This document shows positions 14,691 through 53,790 of a stretch of DNA of 64,000 bases, piece after piece. Source of the DNA: Eledone cirrhosa (Eukaryota); contig OZ024745.1 in NCBI GenBank assembly GCA_964016885.1, positions 74,400,001 through 74,464,000 on the forward strand, in the 5' to 3' direction. Under the pieces are notes generated by a model. That model made no database searches, was not told where the DNA came from, and worked only from the letters and a program-made list of their open reading frames with translations. Positions within the stretch are counted from its first letter, which is position 1, and each line of letters starts with the position of its first letter. Position numbers and translations under genes: made by a program.

Positions 14691-15240
14691 CAGAGGTTAG
14701 CTTTGCTTTTCATCCTTACCTTATGGGGGTCAATAAAATAAAGTACCAGTAATGCACTGGGGTTGATTTAATCGACTTCCCCGATCCTCAAAATTGTTGG
14801 CCTTGTGACTAAAATCAGAAACCATGATTAGGGCAGTGGATTGGCAGTATCGGTAGAGGGTCGGATGCCATGCTTTGACGCATAGAGTTACGGCCCTTGG
14901 CAGTCTGAGTTCAAATCCCGCCGAGGTTAACTTTGCCTTTCATCCTTACGGGGGGTCGATAAAATAAAGTACCAGTAATGCACTGGGATAATTGCTGGCC
15001 TTGTGCCAAAAGTAGAAACAATTATTATTGTGGATAGGGTGGTATCGGTAAAGCGTCAGACACCGTGCTTTGCAGCATAGAGTTACGGCCCTTTACGTTT
15101 TGTGTTCAAATCCTGCCAAGATTAGTTTTGCCTTTCATTTTTATGGTGTCGATAAAATAAAGTACTGGAGTCTATGTAATCGACTTTCTCCTTCTCTTCA
15201 AATTGCTGGCCTTGTGCCAAATGTAGAAGCAATTATTATT
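14691..15240 (+). mobile_element. Head-to-tail array of three tRNA-headed Meta/MESC-like SINE units
   Basis: Repeated 'gagttcaaatcccgccgaggttaactttgcctttcatccttacggggtcgataaaataaagtaccag...ggccttgtgccaaaagtagaaacaattatt'. Confidence 0.8.
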
Positions 15241-15344
15241 ATTGTAGTATTACTACTACTACTACTACTAGTGGTGGTGGTAGTAGTAGCTGCAACAGTT
15301 GTAGTGCTTGCATTGTTTGTTGATATTATTGGTTTGTTTATATC

Positions 15345-15620
15345 TTCTTCTTCAGAGGGTTGTTGGGGCAGAATCCTCAAATACTCCTTCCAGTGGGTCC
15401 TGTCAGAAGCATCTGTTTCCAACTGATCCGACTGAATCCCCAAGTGAAACCAGCCGAGTTCATGGATATTATCCACCCATCTTGCTTGGAGTCTACCCAT
15501 GGCTCTCCTGCCAGTTAGTTTTGCCTGTAAAATCTGCCCAGCGATTCTTTCTTGAGACATTCTAACTACATGCTCTACCTGGAATGACTCTCTGATCTCC
15601 GAGCTATGCACTCTATCGAG
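15345..15620 (-). mobile_element. 3' fragment of Rex3/Expander-like RTE LINE
   Basis: HVVRMSQERIAGQILQAKLTGRRAMGRLQARWVDNI...DRTHWKEYLRILPQQP. Confidence 0.8.
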
Positions 15621-15868
15621 TAATGTTTCTCTTCTTGCTATTATTACTAATTAATGTACTCCTTATCTTTTATATCTTTAATCTTAACACCACTGCATGA
15701 CATTAATCCAACATGGCACCTCAATACTATCATCATCACCAATACAAACACCAAATACTCTTTAAAGAATAAAGTAAGGGAAATATTTTGGATTACTCCA
15801 CCCCAAAATTATTTTTTTAAATATATATAATTGTAAACCTATTGGTCCTTTGTAGTAAACACGTTTAA

Positions 15869-23269: not shown

Positions 23270-24150
23270 AAGTTACAGCAGTAAAGGCATCCAAAGATAA
23301 GATATGGGTAGACTTTGGGATTAAGCTGGAATCCGACTTCATAATAAGAGATCCTCCTCCATGCCTGCTATCATGAAAATGACTGGGGTTCTCCTCCCTT
23401 CAGAGAGGTGCATCCTTGTGAGGTGGCGAGAATACTTTGTTGATCTTCTAAATTCGGTCAGAACAGCGACATCTCATGTACACACAGTGCATCTGGGAGC
23501 AATGACGGAGGTCACAAGAGCAATTAAAGAGCTAAAATGTGGCAAAGCTGCTGAAGAGGATGAAATTCAACCAGAGATGTTAAAAGCCTTAAATAGAGAA
23601 GGTATTCTCTGGCTGGCTGGTGTGTGCTGAGTGGCCTGGATTTCTGGAAAGTCACCTAAGCAATGGCAATCAGAAGTGATAATCTCAATTTTCAAAAAGG
23701 GAGATAAGAGAAATTGCTCCAATTATAGAAGGATCTCCTTGTTAAGCTTTCCTGGTAAAGTCTATGCTAAGAGTCTGGCAAAGAGATGTAGGGATATTGT
23801 TGAGTCCAAGCTAACTGATGAACAGTTTGGTTTTCACCTGGACGTAGCACTGCCGACCAAGTGTTCACACAGTGGCAGGTCTTTGAAAATCGTGGGAGTA
23901 TTGCCAAGAGGTGTATGCTTGCTTAATAGACCTTGAAAAGGCATATGACCACATTCCACAAGACCTGTTGTGGAAGGTTCTTAAGGAGTAGGGGATTGAT
24001 GGATAGCTTCTTATTTCCCTGATGTCTCTATACAAATGCCCTAGTATTTGTGTTCAGTTAAATGGTACTAAGTCAAAACAAAAAATGTGGGTGCTGGACT
24101 CCACCAAGTACTGTCACCTAATCTTCATGGACAGGATTGACTTGCAGCTG
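23270..24150 (+). mobile_element. RTE LINE RT fragment (Rex3/Expander-like), with stops and frameshifts
   Basis: RWREYFVDLLN, GKAAEEDEIQPEMLKAL, WQSEVIISIFKKGDKRNCSNYRRISLLSFPGKVYAK, DLEKAYD. Confidence 0.9.
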
Positions 24151-27837: not shown

Positions 27838-28121
27838 ATGTGTGTGTGTGTGTGTATTCTGGCAGAATATACATATATGAGTTGATGATTAGTGATTCGG
27901 ACGATTTCTCTACAAAGGAATTAAATGTTACTTCCTATGTAGTTGAATGAAACATATGTAAATCAATTAAATAAGGTATTAGTGTATTGAGCCTTGGGGA
28001 TTATTATTTTTTGTGTATATATATATAAATAACGAAGGAAATGTGGTAAGGAACCAGGTGGACCATAACGCACCAAAGTACTCAATACTTAGGGTAGTAG
28101 AGTGGGTAATAGGAACGAGTA

Positions 28122-28225
28122 GGACGCCGACGGCTGAGCTCAAGCCGTTTCGACGGCTAATTCTGGACTAAATGAAAATTTTTATCCTGGTATATGAATA
28201 GCCGAGCTTCTCAGGGGGTAATTCC
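28122..28225 (-). ncRNA. Type I hammerhead-like ribozyme with variant core in the 3' pLTR
   Basis: Reverse complement of 30648-30751. Confidence 0.65.
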
Positions 28226-29296
28226 ATATATGGTAAAAGTGATTGTCACAAGGATTGGTCAAAAGTTTGTTGTTGAGACACATAATTCTATCATGGCAAT
28301 TTGTGGAAGGAAGGGGTAGCTGAACCTGCCAGTAGAAAAAAGAGGGAGAGGGAGTCGAGGAAACCCAGTCGTGCGTTGATAGTGCCAACTACAGCAGGGC
28401 AGGAGGTCAAGCAAGTATACTAGGGAGGGGGAGGAAGTCGAAACAAAAAGTAAATCAATATGGAGTAAATATATAGAAGAATACCAAGAATGTTAAAAAT
28501 ATTTAAAAAAAACAATTTCTGGTTACTATTTCCTAACGACAGTCATCAATTCTCTCACTGGTACTGCTAAACTATAGAAAAGTTTACTAGGTGGGACGGA
28601 ATTGTAAAGAGACCAATTTAAGAGTTAGTAGTAATCAACCAAGTATATCTTATGGTGACAGGTCAACAAGTGGGGGGGCCACAATACTAAAGAAACTACC
28701 ACGAAATAATAATTCAGAGTCCCGAAACTAATACGAAATAATTGCCTCCACCCTAGGCACAAGGCCAGCAACTACCCAGTGCAAAAAATAAACTAATACG
28801 AAATAATAATTCAGAATCCCGAAAATGAATACTAATACTATCTCTAAGGGTGCCGCTACGATACAAAAATTCTAGTGCAAACTACATAAATGCTCGTACG
28901 AGGTATATGAAAAATTTGATACGGAAAATTAATTCAGAATCACCCCCCCCCCCCCCCCCCCCCCTCCAAAAAAATACTGATATACGAGAAATTAAAGCAG
29001 TGATACCACTAAGAAATGTAGAAAGCACGGAAATGGGGCAGCCATCGGATAAGAAAGCAAGTATCTGGGGTCTATCACATCTGCTATAAAAAGCCGAGTC
29101 GGCCAATTCTATCATAGAATAGGGGATGGGGGGTGGGGGTACTGAGGCTACAAAGGACCGAGGGGCTACCTCGGGTGGGCGAGAAAATGAAAAGGACGAC
29201 GTCAAAGAAGGAGGACTGGGGAGGAAGGACTAGGAAGGGATGGGGTGAAGAAGCAAATATAGAGGAAACGATAAAAAGATATGAAAGATCTTACGT

Positions 29297-30361
29297 CTAC
29301 CTTTGCAAGCAGGGGTTACCCATTACAAAGTCGGCAAGTGGGGTGTTACAGCCCTTGTCTAAACCCCCCCCCCCCGGGTCATTATGGGGTTTGAGGGCGA
29401 GGTAAGTCCTACGCAATCTGTGTTTGCATGCAGTTACCAGTTCGTCTTTCTTGTTTAGGAGTTGGTCCGTCGAAAACAGCATTTGTAAAGTTTCCTCCGA
29501 GCATAAATTGCACGGACGGCGTCCTCCCGTGTAAGAGTTGGCTCTGGACAGTAAGCTCCAAGTGAGATCATAGGTGATATTGTTGTCTTTGAGGTCCCAG
29601 ATGTGGCCCAAAAGTGTGGTGGCGTGATGCCGGGCCGGGTTTCGGAAAGTATGTCTGTGTTGGTATAGTCGGGTCTTGAAGTAACATGCGGTTAATCCTA
29701 TATAAGCTTTGTTGGAGGTGTCCGTCCTCACGTTGCACTGGTAGATCACATTACGATCTCTGCATCTGTTGTCGAGGGGGAAAATGGATCCATCAGGACA
29801 GTTGCGCCTCCTGGTCGGCTCTCCACTGCTATTTAGGTTATTTCTTCCATAGGGGTTGAGTTTTTTGTTGTTAGAGGAGACGATGTTTTGTGCAAAGTTT
29901 GGTTTGGTGCTGTAGGAGAGTTTGATGGTATTTTTGTTGATTATGTTGTGGTAGCGGTGTTGTAGTGGGAAGTGTTTTTCGATGAGCCTAAAGAAGATTT
30001 TCCCGATAGGAGTTGTCGCCTCGGCGTTGTGAGGGGGATTGAACCATGTTACATTGCGTGAGCGGCGGTGTCGCCTGCTGGTTCCGCTAATGGAAGCTGG
30101 ACAGTAGGATATTTCCTCCCGGAAACCACTCCGCTTGAGGGCCTGGTTGTAATAAGGCGCATGTTCCTCGAATATCTGCTCATTGGCGGACAAACGAGAT
30201 ATGCGGAGAGAGATGTTTTTAACCAGGTTATTGGTGATGTTCCTAGGATGGTTTGACCGGCGGTGGATGTAGTGCAGGTTGTCATTGGGTTTCCTGTATG
30301 GGTAGTACAGATCATTATCGAGGTCAAGGGTAACGTCCAGGAAGTTTACTCGGGTCAGGGA
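29297..30361 (-). CDS. PLE ORF remnant: RT C-terminus/thumb plus GIY-YIG endonuclease (open frame, no start codon)
   Basis: VNFLDVTLDL..YRKPND, WFNPP, IKLSYS, NVIYQC...AYIGLT...FKTRLYQH, CNLCSEE, LNKKDEL..CKH; the frame continues upstream of the listed 298-aa ORF. Confidence 0.9.
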   Translation of the reverse strand, partial: SLTRVNFLDVTLDLDNDLYYPYRKPNDNLHYIHRRSNHPRNITNNLVKNISLRISRLSANEQIFEEHAPYYNQALKRSGFREEISYCPASISGTSRRHRRSRNVTWFNPPHNAEATTPIGKIFFRLIEKHFPLQHRYHNIINKNTIKLSYSTKPNFAQNIVSSNNKKLNPYGRNNLNSSGEPTRRRNCPDGSIFPLDNRCRDRNVIYQCNVRTDTSNKAYIGLTACYFKTRLYQHRHTFRNPARHHATTLLGHIWDLKDNNITYDLTWSLLSRANSYTGGRRPCNLCSEETLQMLFSTDQLLNKKDELVTACKHRLRRTYLALKPHNDPGGGGLDKGCNTPLADFVMGNPCLQR

Positions 30362-30647
30362 CGTTTTTTATATTTTTAACATTCTTGGTACTCTTCTATA
30401 TATTTACTCCATATTGATTTACTTTTTGTTTCGACTTCCTCCCCCCTCCCTAGTATACTTGCTTGACCTCCTGCCCTGCTGTAGTTGGCACTATCAACGC
30501 ACGACTGGGATTCCCCCACTCCCTCTCCCTCTTTCTTCTACTGGCAGGTTCAGCTACCCCTTCCTTCCACAAATTGCCATGATAGAATTATGTGTCTCAA
30601 CAACAAACTTTTGACCAATCCTTGTGACAATCACTTTTACCATATAT

Positions 30648-30751
30648 GGAATTACCCCCTGAGAAGCTCGGCTATTCATATACCAGGATAAAAATTTTCA
30701 TTTAGTCCAGAATTAGCCGTCGAAACGGCTTGAGCTCAGCCGTCGGCGTCC
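30648..30751 (+). ncRNA. Type I hammerhead-like ribozyme with variant core in the inverted pLTR
   Basis: acccc-CTGAGAA-G..cggcta...tagccg.C-GAAA-cggct tgagctc agcc-GTC-ggcgt; predicted cleavage after C30744. Confidence 0.65.
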
Positions 30752-30757
30752 TATTCG

Positions 30758-30829
<72 letters not shown>

Positions 30830-34969: not shown

Positions 34970-35160
34970 GGCTGTGGTTGGCAGTATCGGTAGAGGGTCG
35001 GACACCATGCTTTACAGCAAAGAGTTACGACCCTTTATGATCTGAGTTCAAATCCCGCCGAGGTTAACTTTGCCTTTCATCCTTACGGGGTCGATAAAAT
35101 AAAGTACCAGTAATACACTGGCATAATTGCTGGCCTTGTACCAAAAGTAGAAACAATTGT
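34970..35160 (+). mobile_element. Meta/MESC-like SINE, tail A
   Basis: Same unit as the 14.8-kb array. Confidence 0.85.
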
Positions 35161-37067: not shown

Positions 37068-37326
37068 GACTTTGCCTTTCATCCTTACGGGGTCGATAAA
37101 ATAAAGTACCAGTAATGCACTGAGTAATTGCTGGCCTTGTGCCTAAAGTAGAAACAATTATTATGGCGGTGGATTGGCAGTATCGGTTACGGCCCTTTAT
37201 GGTCTGAGTTCAAATCCCGCCGAGGTTAACTTTGCCTGTCATCCTTACGGGGGTCGATAAAATAAAGCACCAGTAATACATTAATTTAATTGCTGGCCTT
37301 GTGCCAAATGTAGAAACAATTATTAT
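37068..37326 (+). mobile_element. Tandem Meta/MESC-like SINE units
   Basis: Two head-to-tail units. Confidence 0.8.
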
Positions 37327-45024: not shown

Positions 45025-46650
45025 GCAGCATTATTTAATGTTTTCCCTGCTAGCAAGGGTATAATAATTTATTTTTTTCTTTTCAAACTCATTTTTTATT
45101 TCAAAATTCATTTGCTCCTTTATCTGAAGTGATCTCTCTAAGATTAATTTTTATTGTTCTCTGAGGAATACAGACCATGTCATTAAGCCAAATTAATGTT
45201 TTAAAGATGGAAAAATTTTGTATTAAGGGTTGGGGGGGGGGGTCTTTTATTTTCAAAAGTGTGTAATTATTGCCCCACCCCATTCTTTTTTCTTTATCTA
45301 GCTATATATATCTTACACTTTCAATTCTCAACTTCAAAGCACATTGCATTGTCAGAGTGATGGGATTTAATCAACCTTCATGAAAATAGCTACCATTCCC
45401 TCTTCATGCTTGAAGAGTTAACTAAAGAAGAGCAACCATCTGTAAATTGACTTGCTCCTATAATCCATGCAGATATCCAAAAGCAACCAACCTATGCAAT
45501 AATAACAATAATAATCAATATGATAGAAACACCATCAGAACATAACACTACACATAGCCTAGCCAAATCACACAGAACTCTGCTCAGTAATGCAGTGACA
45601 GCTCAAAATAAAAAAAAAACATTGATAACAAATTACAAAGACTCAACATCATGAATAGTAATTTAATTATATTTAAATTGTTTTCCTCCTAAATTCGTTA
45701 TTTACTTTCAAATTCAGTTTTATTTTTTATGAATTTTTCTCAGAAATATTTCTTAAAATCTTGAAATTTCTAATTTAAAACTTGATGGTGCAAAGCAAGA
45801 ATGGTGGCTCAAGTACTTATTGAGCCTGATTGAGCAGATCTATAATTGAAGCATGTCTCTAGGGATCACACTGCTTCTCCTCTGGTGTCAAAGCTAGGGA
45901 ATAAATTACAAGGTTTCTGGCAAAGTTATCTTTAATAGGTCAATATGCTACTCAGAAAGAGAATTATTTCATTGGCTTAGCAGTTGTGGTTCACAAGAAA
46001 ACTAAGTACATTGATTTTACACTTTACAATTGAGAATAAAAAAATAAGTGTTCTTCAAGTCCCAAGAATAGTTGTTTGGGGTTTTGCATCTTGGAATGAA
46101 AGGTAGATAGGAAGTTTGGAGCAGAACTCCAAGGGAACACCATGCTTTTGATGGAGAGGCATTGATAGAGGGAAATGATTGAGTATCCACAGTTCACATT
46201 TAGAACCATTCTTTTGAAGACCCCTACTAAAAAGTCCCTCCATCATTGGCTCTGCCATGATCAGAACCCCACTATGAGGTTCCCTAATTATGAATCAAAA
46301 AGGTCCCAGACATTTTTATCTAAATAGGACCTTGTACCTGAGGGTACAAGAAAACTACTTTAAATATACTGTAAATTCAAATTCTACTGCTGCTAACTGC
46401 AGTTAGCATTCACAAATTCCTTATTACCATTTGTAAATATTAAATTAAATACAATACAGACTTGAATGCCTTTAATTTTTCTAAAGAATCAGTTTAATTT
46501 AAAAGAAAGGGAAAAAGAACCAAGGATGAATATTCTGTTGTATTTCATCAAAAATTGATGGTTAAAATAGGGGGTTCGTTCGAGATCAATATTTTGCCGA
46601 TTTTCTCCAACTTCTACCTAAATGGGGTGAGGTGCTAAAATATTTTTGGT

Positions 46651-46768
46651 TTGGAGGTGAATATTACACCAGCTTCACTTTGGATGTGAATATTACATTT
46701 GCTTGACTTTGGATGTGAATATTACATTTGCTTGACTTTGGAGGTGAATAATTCACTAGTTTCACTTT
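46651..46768. repeat. 29-bp tandem repeat, 4 copies
   Basis: ttggatgtgaatattacatttgcttgact; lies upstream of a Tc1/pogo-like end 'cggcttatattcctgactatacggta' at ~47047-47072. Confidence 0.85.
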
Positions 46769-47423: not shown

Positions 47424-48326
47424 CAAACTTGGAAGCAGGGACTAGAAAGAAAGGGTCTCAAAGTCAACATGACAAAGACTAAGGTCCTTGTAAGTAGACG
47501 AGAAAACAGAACCCAGATCCCCTCAGGGAAATGGCCTTGCTCAGTATGTAGGAAAGGTGTAGGTAGGAACTCCATTCTCTGCCCCAAATGCAAACAATGA
47601 GTACACAAGAGATGTAGCGGGATCTCAGGAAACTTAATTAAGAATGTAGGCTTCACATGCAGCAGCTGTACTGGGACAGCAAACAGCAAACAGCCACAGG
47701 AAACAAGTACCACCAATCTCTGGGAGGGCTCTGTAGAGACAGTAGACAGCTTCTGCTACCTAGGTGACCGAATTAGCAGCGGAGGTGGGTGTTCAGAAAG
47801 TACAAGGGTAAGAACGGGGTTGAAGAAGTTCAGGGAACTACTGCCACTGCTAGCTGCAAAAGGCTTCTCCCTCAAAATGAAAGGCAGACTGTATGATGCG
47901 TGTATCCGAACAGCAATGTTACATGGTAGTGAGACCTGGGCGCTGAAGGTGGAAGACTTACGTAGATTAGAGAGAAACGAAGCCTGCATGCTTCGATGGA
48001 TGTGTAATAGTAATATACGCGAACGACAAAGCATAAATGAATTGAGAGAGAGACTGAGCATAAGAGGAATCAAATGCTGTGTGCAGGAGAGGCGGTTGCG
48101 TTGGTATGGACATGTGATGCGTATGAAGGATGACAGCTGCATAAAAAGGTGCAGAGCACTAGAAGTCGATGGAAACCGCGGAGTGGGGAGACCCAAGATG
48201 ACATGGGATGAGGTGATAAAAGCCAACCTTACCCAATTACACCTCTCAAAGGCGATGACACACGACCGTGACCTCTGGCGTCACGCAATAATACAGAGTA
48301 CCCGACCTCCCATGGGTACAAGCTGA
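47421..48326 (+). mobile_element. 5'-truncated RTE LINE ORF end with an embedded PHD finger; one in-frame stop (47598-47600)
   Basis: GLKVNMTKTKVL-[GKWPCSVC..CPKCKQ*VHKRC..CSSC]-VDSFCYLG...MLHGSETW...RRLRWYGHVMRM...GRPKMTW in a single frame. Confidence 0.92.
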
Positions 48327-52959: not shown

Positions 52960-53790
52960 CACAGAGCCCTGGCGGACAGGATGGAGAAGGCGTTCCCCCG
53001 GAGGACGGCAAGGGAGATGTGCTGGAAAATCCACTCCAACTCGTGGGGTTCACACCTGCGGCTGGCCAGCTCAGCGCCTATGGTGGTCAGTAGGGAGGTA
53101 GCCCTAGGGCCAAGGGCACCAGAAGTCTCCACTGCCAGGGGGTACAACCGCAAACCTGTCGGAGAGCGATCAGTATTTGAGGAGTTTGGCCTCCTCAGCC
53201 CGACGTGCAGCAGAACCTGGGTTAGTCGCAGACTGCACCAGGTTGCGGCTGCAGAAAGTGTCGGTGCAAGTAGCATCCCAGACGAGGGGTTTGTCATCTG
53301 GCCTTTTGCCGTCCCCTCGGTCCAGCCCCACCGGCTCGAGCTGGGAAAGGAAGCCCTCAGCGTCCGAGCCATGCTTTATGACCTCGTTGAGGGCAGCATG
53401 GCGTGGAAGGCGGCCGGCACTGTGGCGACAGGAAAGCGGGTGGAGGCCGAAAGAGTCCATGGTGGATCCACAGCGACATTGGTGCGGCTCGCAGATCCAG
53501 AGGCCGAGCCTCAAGGAAACGCTGATGCGCAGGCTATTGTTGTCTAGCTGCGTGCCAGTGGAGAAGGAGGGCAGGGCATGGAGCCAGGCACCACTGTGGG
53601 GTTTAGAGGCCGCACGAAAGCAGGCAAGGCGGTGCTGGTCGAGCTGGCGCGTGAGCCTGTCTGAGGCCAGGCTGCACTGGATGGCATCCCAAGTGCTTTG
53701 GGGGTTGACTTGACGTCAACAGAGAAAGAAGGAGGAGGGACGTCTACTGGGCTAAGTCCCAGCCGGTCCCACGTCTCACAGGCGGCCTCA
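52960..53790 (-). mobile_element. CRE-clade non-LTR retrotransposon 3' part (CCHC zinc knuckle plus PD-(D/E)xK endonuclease), frameshifted
   Basis: HSGAWL..LP, CRCG..MDSFGLHPLSC, RHAALN, DGKRPD, WDATC, AEEAKLLKY, PLAVETSGALG, FQHISLAVLRGNA. Confidence 0.9.

What the first reader, a model, noticed from the sequence alone, without database searches (positions are those of the whole stretch)
28738..28783. SINE fragment with a pure A>G pattern: possible genomic fossil of ADAR hyper-editing
Seen: ataattgCCtcCacCCtaggcacaaggccagcaaCtacccagtgca versus the family sequence ataattgTTtcTacTTt(a/t)ggcacaaggccagcaaTtacccagtgca (49034, 49127, reverse complement of 37116-37162). All six differences (28745, 28746, 28749, 28752, 28753, 28772) are T>C, i.e. 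A>G on the strand that is sense for both SINE and PLE. The changed As have 5' A/U neighbours and the A after G is spared, matching known ADAR preference. This runs against the usual C>T decay. Coleoids are known for very extensive A-to-I editing. Inference: edited RNA was reverse-transcribed into the genome.
Basis: partly seen in the sequence, partly recalled or inferred. Interest (0 to 1): 0.75.

Follow-up and report, generated by a model that had tools for sequence, protein, structure and literature searches.

The report
RNA edits fossilised in jumping genes
A 46-base SINE scrap carried inside a Penelope-like retrotransposon gained only A-to-G changes, step by step, as the element spread, and SINE scraps in other retrotransposons of this genome show the same host-strand pattern, likely because the RNA-editing enzyme ADAR edited the RNA and reverse transcription fixed the edits in DNA.

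Summary
The six T>C differences are real. The fragment is a SINE 3' tip inserted once, with a target-site duplication, into a Penelope-like family (539 flank matches). Of 90 copies chosen by flank alone, 40 carry the tip and 6 of those are unedited. Edits accumulated stepwise (0, then 4, then 7; one reverted in this copy). In 39 flank-chosen copies the tip shows 24 sense A>G events against 3.4 expected from the rest of the element; other change types are at background. No free SINE subfamily carrying these alleles turned up. Mirror test: SINE pieces inserted antisense in other retrotransposons carry A>G on the host's strand (44 loci same strand, 1 opposite, 11 without a host; mostly one family). 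In an inverted pair both arms are edited, only where they pair. The 5' neighbour order is U>A>C>G (p=5e-7), as for ADAR. Best reading: ADAR edits SINE-derived double-stranded stretches in retrotransposon RNA and reverse transcription fixes them in the germline (0.85). No RNA data were available, and the partner strand for this tip is inferred. I found no report of this in non-LTR elements or cephalopods.

The parts
28738..28783 (-). 3' tip (46 nt) of a tRNA-type SINE, captured in sense orientation in the 3' region of the Penelope-like element
   Evidence: matches the free-SINE end; empty-site copies of the host lack it
28752..28753 (-). two A>G changes of the early round(s), shared by most filled copies
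   Evidence: C on + strand in 71 and 70 of 81 copies
28772..28773 (-). two A>G changes of clade a; 28773 has reverted privately in this copy
   Evidence: C in 68 and 69 of 81 copies
28745..28749 (-). three linked A>G changes (28745, 28746, 28749) of the later round, clade b; 28747 (5' G) spared
   Evidence: linked in 12 of 30 nearest copies; clade b without L004 has support 0.96; 28747 unchanged in 81 of 81
28725..28742 (.). left copy of the 18-bp target-site duplication; last 5 bases overlap the SINE tail
   Evidence: present once in empty-site copies
28784..28789 (.). 6-base filler at the 5' junction of the truncated SINE
28790..28807 (.). right copy of the target-site duplication
28016..30366 (-). 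5'-truncated Penelope-like element (Hydra-type by motifs), host of the fragment; starts at a short TA run
   Evidence: homology with other copies from 28016/28109 to 30366
29297..30367 (-). C-terminal part of the host ORF: end of RT, linker, GIY-YIG-like endonuclease with CxxC and CxH motifs
   Evidence: longer copy L343 has the RT YRDD motif; 100 homologues listed; no Pfam or PDB hit
30364..30759 (+). inverted copy of 28114-28510, the inverted 5' extension typical of Penelope-like insertions; followed by (TA)n 30759-30829
   Evidence: 97.7% identical
35066..35158 (+). nearest free SINE copy in the opposite orientation; an example of the kind of copy that could supply the partner strand in a read-through transcript (inferred, not shown)

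Best explanation
A SINE tip inserted into a Penelope-like element has gained only sense-strand A>G changes in successive sub-lineages, likely because ADAR edited the element's RNA where the tip paired with an antisense SINE RNA and the element's reverse transcriptase then copied inosine as G. Shown: one insertion with an 18-bp target-site duplication; empty, unedited and partly edited copies; nesting 0 -> 4 -> 7 changes; excess confined to the tip; the same host-strand rule in other retrotransposon families; restriction to paired arms; ADAR-like 5' context; an ADAR deaminase domain in the genome. Inferred: that the change happened on RNA, that ADAR did it, that it happened in the germline, and that the partner strand came from an inverted SINE in a read-through transcript or from another RNA in trans. 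Each new retrotransposition of an edited RNA would found a sub-lineage that can be edited again.
For: History: 40 of 90 flank-chosen loci are filled, 6 of the 40 unedited. A tree built without the fragment nests unedited and variously edited basal copies, then clade a, then clade b. Rate: 24 T>C events against 3.4 expected, 9 of 9 internal-branch changes T>C, mirror A>G 3 against 3.8 expected. Tree-free test: 9 of 11 sites against 35 of 192. Second sense capture: an RLE-type LINE 5' UTR carries a 52-nt tip with a different set of 5 T>C and no other shared change (37 filled, 7 empty of 44). Mirror: forcing two antisense A>G gave 10 matches, 6 with more, whereas 4 of 100 listed single-forced matches had more. 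Edits lie on the host ORF strand in 44 loci, opposite in 1, no host found in 11. Inverted pair in an RTE-like element: both arms A>G on one strand, 18 of 27 As in the paired part against 1 of 20 unpaired. Context over 27 clusters, forced sites excluded: 5' U 58/102, A 91/197, C 48/153, G 10/73 (p=5e-7); 3' G not significant, as reported for invertebrate ADARs (PMC5625713, passages). ADAR deaminase domain in G000.
Against: No RNA-level observation is part of the evidence. The partner strand is unidentified: the local 361 nt do not fold better than shuffles (z=0.42), and only 4 of 36 filled copies had an inverted SINE tip within the 2.4-3 kb fetched. Tree support is modest (filled 0.72, clade a+b 0.73), so parsimony may over-count events. 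The pooled spectrum (A>G 268, T>C 14) was selected on A>G and is not an unbiased test. About 36 of the 44 same-strand loci belong to one family, some loci overlap, and one counted piece (L387) lies outside its nominal host. L292 is on the opposite strand. The element's own inverted repeat region shows no sense A>G excess. Human L1 RNA was reported not to be edited by ADAR1 (PMC5224506, passages).
Confidence: 0.85

Rival explanations
1. The G alleles come from a SINE subfamily (older or parallel), by insertion or gene conversion, with no editing.
For: Free copies occasionally carry one of the alleles (2 of 30 at the 28746 site, 1 of 30 at the 28752 site; 4 of 100 at the 28773 site).
Against: None of 30 free copies has more than one of the six. 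The 30 loci read from the 683 C-allele matches all belonged to a second host element with a different set. Unedited filled copies are basal. 0 of 141 young free pieces are dominated by A>G or T>C. Direction follows the host strand, not the SINE strand.
Confidence: 0.02
2. A general mutational bias: reverse-transcriptase misincorporation, strand-asymmetric mutation or GC-biased gene conversion.
For: Transitions are common, and all hosts pass through reverse transcription.
Against: Outside the tip the same element shows T>C 7.9 and A>G 9.0 per 1000, no sense bias. None of the 12 diagnostic changes outside the tip between basal, a and b groups is sense A>G. GC-biased conversion would act on both strands. 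The pattern recurs with PLE, RLE-type and RTE/APE-type enzymes and stops at the edge of a paired arm.
Confidence: 0.03
3. Adenine deamination on DNA, for example ADAR acting on the DNA strand of R-loops formed with SINE RNA, with no RNA-to-DNA copying.
For: ADARs can deaminate DNA in RNA:DNA hybrids in vitro (recalled, not from a call). One single-copy locus without a visible host (L345) has three edited pieces on one strand.
Against: Hybrids with SINE RNA would hit the antisense DNA strand of all copies, yet free copies are unedited, sense tips are edited, and both arms of an inverted pair are edited on the same strand. Changes are concentrated on internal branches (11 internal, 21 terminal in the tip; 83 internal, 1396 terminal outside), as expected if they arise at retrotransposition rather than with time in the genome.
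Confidence: 0.06
4. Ordinary mutations selected among active copies, for example to escape SINE-directed small-RNA silencing or to keep an RNA structure.
For: Edited clades outnumber unedited filled copies (34 of 40), so selection on edited variants may add to the pattern.
Against: A>G barely weakens pairing with antisense SINE RNA (-85.0 to -83.2 kcal/mol), so it is a poor escape route. Other change types in the tip are at background, not depleted. Terminal-branch T>C is also in excess (15 events in the 39 flank-chosen copies). No local structure. It does not explain the 5' neighbour order.
Confidence: 0.04

Closest known systems
ADAR hyper-editing of inverted SINEs in RNA (Alu; metazoan survey PMC5625713 and PMC3197674, passages read)
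   Same: A>G clusters in SINE sequence, both arms of inverted pairs, 5' G depleted; weak 3' G preference as reported for invertebrates
   Different: Seen here in genomic DNA, inherited and amplified by retrotransposon lineages, and cumulative over rounds
APOBEC DNA editing of LTR retrotransposons (PMC4866542 and PMC2873906, passages read)
   Same: Strand-biased clusters of one change type fixed in genomic retroelement copies and polarised against the family consensus
   Different: There G>A on the sense strand by cDNA deamination, in vertebrate LTR elements, reported absent from 19 invertebrate genomes; here A>G on the sense strand, in non-LTR and Penelope-like elements, confined to pairable SINE segments
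A-to-G hypermutated retroviral genomes attributed to ADAR (recalled; no paper read)
   Same: Edited RNA copied by reverse transcriptase into DNA
   Different: Somatic viral isolates rather than germline-fixed endogenous non-LTR families
Repeat-directed A-to-I editing in coleoid cephalopods (PMC9068888, passages read)
   Same: Widespread editing of repeats, proposed as a defence against transposons; SINEs dominate octopus repeats
   Different: That work is at RNA level; in the passages read it reports no genomic fixation
Hydra-clade Penelope-like elements (PMC8557442, section 11 and passages read)
   Same: C-terminal endonuclease, CxCX5C linker, CxxC and CxH motifs, (TA)n insertion, inverted truncated copy
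   Different: No hammerhead core found here; N-terminal motifs untested; no phylogeny against reference elements

Membership tests
ADAR A-to-I editing signature | One change type, A>G, on the transcribed strand | tested here: met
   24 against 3 mirror events in the tip; 44 loci on host strand, 1 opposite, 11 no host
ADAR A-to-I editing signature | G depleted 5' of edited A (U>A>C>G) | tested here: met
   58/102, 91/197, 48/153, 10/73; p=5e-7; 28747 unchanged in 81 of 81
ADAR A-to-I editing signature | G enriched 3' of edited A | tested here: inconclusive
   57/126 against 150/399, p=0.14; weak 3' G preference is reported for octopus and other invertebrates
ADAR A-to-I editing signature | Edits confined to double-stranded RNA | tested here: inconclusive
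   Met in the RTE-hosted inverted pair (18/27 against 1/20; two related copies 13/28 against 1/19 and 9/28 against 1/19); for the window tip the partner is not identified
ADAR A-to-I editing signature | Inosine or RNA-DNA difference seen in transcripts; loss on ADAR knockdown | not testable with these tools
   no RNA holder listed
ADAR A-to-I editing signature | ADAR encoded in the genome | tested here: met
   PF02137 matches at 4 places; HAE, PCG and SCSDK motifs in L398 (motif roles recalled)
APOBEC-edited retroelements | G>A on the sense strand of LTR elements | tested here: not met
   sense G>A (C>T on + strand) at background in the tip, 14.1 against 14.6 per 1000; hosts are non-LTR or Penelope-like
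SINE subfamily with G alleles | Free full-length copies sharing the alleles | tested here: not met
Hydra-clade PLE (host) | C-terminal GIY-YIG-like endonuclease with CxxC and CxH either side of E and N | tested here: met
   motif scan of the window ORF; Pfam gave no hit
Hydra-clade PLE (host) | CxCX5C linker | tested here: met
   present in family copy L342; degenerate in the window copy and L343
Hydra-clade PLE (host) | Insertion in (TA)n, inverted truncated copy | tested here: met
Hydra-clade PLE (host) | Canonical hammerhead ribozyme | tested here: not met
   no Rfam hammerhead match at E<=5 in 27900-30800; no core motif on the sense strand of 28016-29300; only a truncated copy was examined
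Hydra-clade PLE (host) | RWK and DKT motifs; clade placement | not tested
   no full-length copy recovered

The most novel reading that the evidence does not exclude
In this animal, ADAR editing feeds back into the germline genome at scale: besides SINE pieces riding in at least six retrotransposon families, edited host pre-mRNA is sometimes written back at its own single-copy locus by cDNA-templated conversion. L345 would be an example: three SINE pieces in both orientations edited on one strand, joined by single-copy sequence, with no host element and no parent copy found.
Probability: 0.12. Interest if true: 0.92.

Novelty: new variant of a known kind. Interest (0 to 1): 0.74.

Why it matters
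It would be a heritable, datable record of germline ADAR activity readable from DNA alone, the A-to-G counterpart of APOBEC scars in vertebrate retroelements. Coleoid editing is usually treated as a non-inherited RNA layer; here it would act as a directional mutagen on mobile elements. It makes the proposal that ADAR restrains transposons directly testable: one can ask whether edited sub-lineages amplify more or less, infer the enzyme's motif through time, and compare species. It also warns that repeat consensus sequences in such genomes may hold edited, not ancestral, bases.

Tried and rejected
RNA evidence: no RNA holder listed. Three contig sets of one sample were laid on L345 and one on the window; they match single-copy stretches almost letter for letter, so they may be the source sample and are not independent. 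They do show both alleles at 28745, 28746, 28749 and T>C at 28754 and 28773, so the haplotypes are not peculiar to the assembly. Local RNA structure around the tip: none. tRNA scan: 0 genes. Rfam: only TA-repeat noise. Pfam and PDB did not recognise the host ORF, so its class rests on motifs and structure. Clustering edited pieces by shared edit positions merged unrelated insertions and was replaced by flank clustering, which still lumps 47 pieces of one family. Search for a parent of L345: only itself at high identity among 40 scored of 1735 candidates. Rows dropped: 15 of 150 loci did not project on the window (6 free SINEs, 9 empty-site or other), duplicates were merged, and L193 (cut inside the tip) was left out of the counts. 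31 of 87 forced-pattern loci had no piece with 5 or more edits. No control search forcing two changes of another type (for example G>A) was run. Earlier findings of the scan: none returned. Literature searches found no report of germline-fixed A>G clusters in non-LTR or Penelope-like elements; the library lacks most subscription papers and I read no supplements.

Full report
Observation. The 46 bases at 28738-28783 differ from the majority of 30 free SINE copies by exactly six T>C changes at the stated positions. The SINE variant is abundant: 39,149 exact matches of a 35-mer in a 3.0-Gb genome. Its sense strand is the minus strand here, as is the ORF at 29297-30367, so the changes are A>G on the sense strand of both. 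A coleoid origin is inferred only: homologues of the host ORF include Octopus and Argonauta proteins, and the SINE resembles octopus SINEs (recalled). I did not identify the species.

What the fragment is. It lies between 18-bp direct repeats inside a multicopy element: all 40 scored matches cover the whole 261-bp query at 94-100%. The host has a C-terminal GIY-YIG-like domain with CxxC and CxH motifs, a CxCX5C linker in a family copy, (TA)n flanks and an inverted truncated copy. These fit the Hydra clade of Penelope-like elements as described in PMC8557442 (section 11). Pfam and PDB gave no hit and no hammerhead was found, so clade membership is likely, not established.

History of the tip. 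A search on the left flank alone gave 539 matches; 90 of the 100 listed were read. Forty carry the tip, 49 are empty sites and one is something else. Six of the 40 are unedited; others carry one to seven T>C in several combinations. A tree from 1046 columns outside the fragment (81 filled and 41 empty copies) places unedited and variously edited copies at the base, then clade a (28752, 28753, 28772, 28773), then clade b (plus 28745, 28746, 28749). The window copy is in clade b with a private reversion at 28773. Support is modest for the deeper nodes (0.72, 0.73) and 0.96 for clade b without one stray member. So the six changes are cumulative and arose after capture.

Is it more than chance? 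In the 39 flank-chosen filled copies the tip has 24 T>C events against 3.4 expected from the rest of the element; all 9 internal-branch changes are T>C; the mirror A>G has 3 against 3.8 expected; other types are near background. Without a tree, 9 of 11 T sites vary against 35 of 192 outside (p=2e-5), and 8 of 11 against 4 of 192 in two or more copies. Outside the tip there is no sense A>G bias (T>C 7.9, A>G 9.0 per 1000), which argues against a polymerase bias.

No SINE subfamily explains it. No free copy among 30 has more than one of the alleles, and 0 of 141 young free pieces from loci mostly fetched for other reasons are dominated by A>G or T>C. The search for C alleles instead found a second host (683 matches): a LINE with RT and an RLE-type C-terminus (the label R4/Dong-like is recalled). 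Its 5' UTR carries an independent 52-nt sense capture with a different set of five T>C; 37 of 44 flank-chosen copies are filled and 7 empty.

Mirror test. If editing acts on the host's RNA, SINE pieces inserted antisense should show A>G on the SINE's antisense strand. Forcing one such change gave 390 matches, with 4 of 100 listed carrying more. Forcing two gave 10 matches, 6 with more, and 70 in a second region; the T>C counterpart there gave 7. Across 87 loci from these searches, 108 pieces had five or more edits, in 27 clusters; 31 loci had none. Edits lie on the host ORF strand in 44 loci, on the opposite strand in 1 (L292), and 11 had no host within 1.5 kb. Most of the 44 belong to one RLE-type family, some loci overlap, and one piece (L387) lies outside its nominal host. 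The independent weight is therefore about six host families: this PLE, two RLE-type LINEs, an RTE-like element, an APE-type LINE and a second PLE.

Pairing and context. In the RTE-like element an inverted SINE pair has A>G on both arms on the same strand, and the longer copy is edited only where it can pair: 18 of 27 As against 1 of 20. Two related copies show fewer, partly shared edits. Over the 27 clusters, with forced sites excluded, the edited fraction by 5' neighbour is U 0.57, A 0.46, C 0.31, G 0.14 (p=5e-7), with no significant 3' G preference. This matches the invertebrate hyper-editing motif in PMC5625713 (passages). The genome encodes ADAR-family deaminase domains.

Mechanism. Most likely (0.85): the host transcript presents its SINE piece in a duplex with an antisense SINE, ADAR converts several As to inosine, the element's RT writes them as G, and the new copy can found a sub-lineage that is edited again. 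RNA stage, enzyme and germline setting are inferred. For this tip the partner is not in the local 361 nt and is rarely within 3 kb (4 of 36), though the window holds six inverted tip-bearing copies, the nearest 6.3 kb away. No RNA runs were listed. Rivals: DNA-level deamination 0.06, selection on ordinary mutations 0.04, general mutational bias 0.03, SINE subfamily 0.02.

Comparison and novelty. It works like Alu hyper-editing and leaves a scar like APOBEC editing of LTR elements (PMC4866542, PMC2873906; passages), but with the other chemistry, in non-LTR and Penelope-like hosts, in an invertebrate. Repeat-directed editing in coleoids is known at RNA level (PMC9068888, passages); human L1 RNA was reported unedited (PMC5224506, passages); the ultra-editing motif is from PMC3197674 (passages). 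Eight searches (listings only for other papers) found no report of germline-fixed A>G clusters of this kind, but subscription papers and supplements were not seen. Verdict: real, new variant of a known kind, interest 0.74.

Noticed in passing
L345:3872-5445 (G000:C2, near 367.006 Mb): Three SINE pieces in both orientations carry 13, 9 and 6 A>G on one strand while two neighbours are unedited; the sequence between is single-copy and no host ORF or parent was found.
   Followed up: partly
L397:5780-6500: Tandem array of about nine 80-bp SINE tips, each with 7-13 shared A>G, just before what looks like a splice acceptor and exon; probably one edited unit amplified in DNA.
   Followed up: partly
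L387:23-293: A diverged copy of the window's Penelope-like family has 21 A>G against 4 T>C on the antisense strand across non-SINE 3' sequence, suggesting hyper-editing of an antisense or inverted transcript.
   Followed up: partly
L346:5072-5259: Full-length SINE with 22 A>G and no T>C on its antisense strand, next to the inverted arm of another Penelope-like element.
   Followed up: partly
L347:7745-9044 and about 30 related loci: The 5' region of one RLE-type LINE family has repeatedly taken up SINE pieces in antisense orientation; edited and unedited pieces sit side by side and could date successive rounds.
   Followed up: partly
L158, about 70 bases past the empty site: A second, independent SINE insertion into the same Penelope-like 3' region.
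   Followed up: no
L136: An empty-site copy falls inside the filled clade and has many mixed differences, suggesting recombination between sub-lineages or precise loss.
   Followed up: no
window 47601-48326 (+), 23325-23936 (+), 15198-15650 (-), 53170-53715 (-): ORF fragments resembling RTE-type LINE RT and another retroelement C-terminus (labels recalled).
   Followed up: no
window 46650-46768: 29-bp tandem repeat, 4.1 copies, 86% matches.
   Followed up: no
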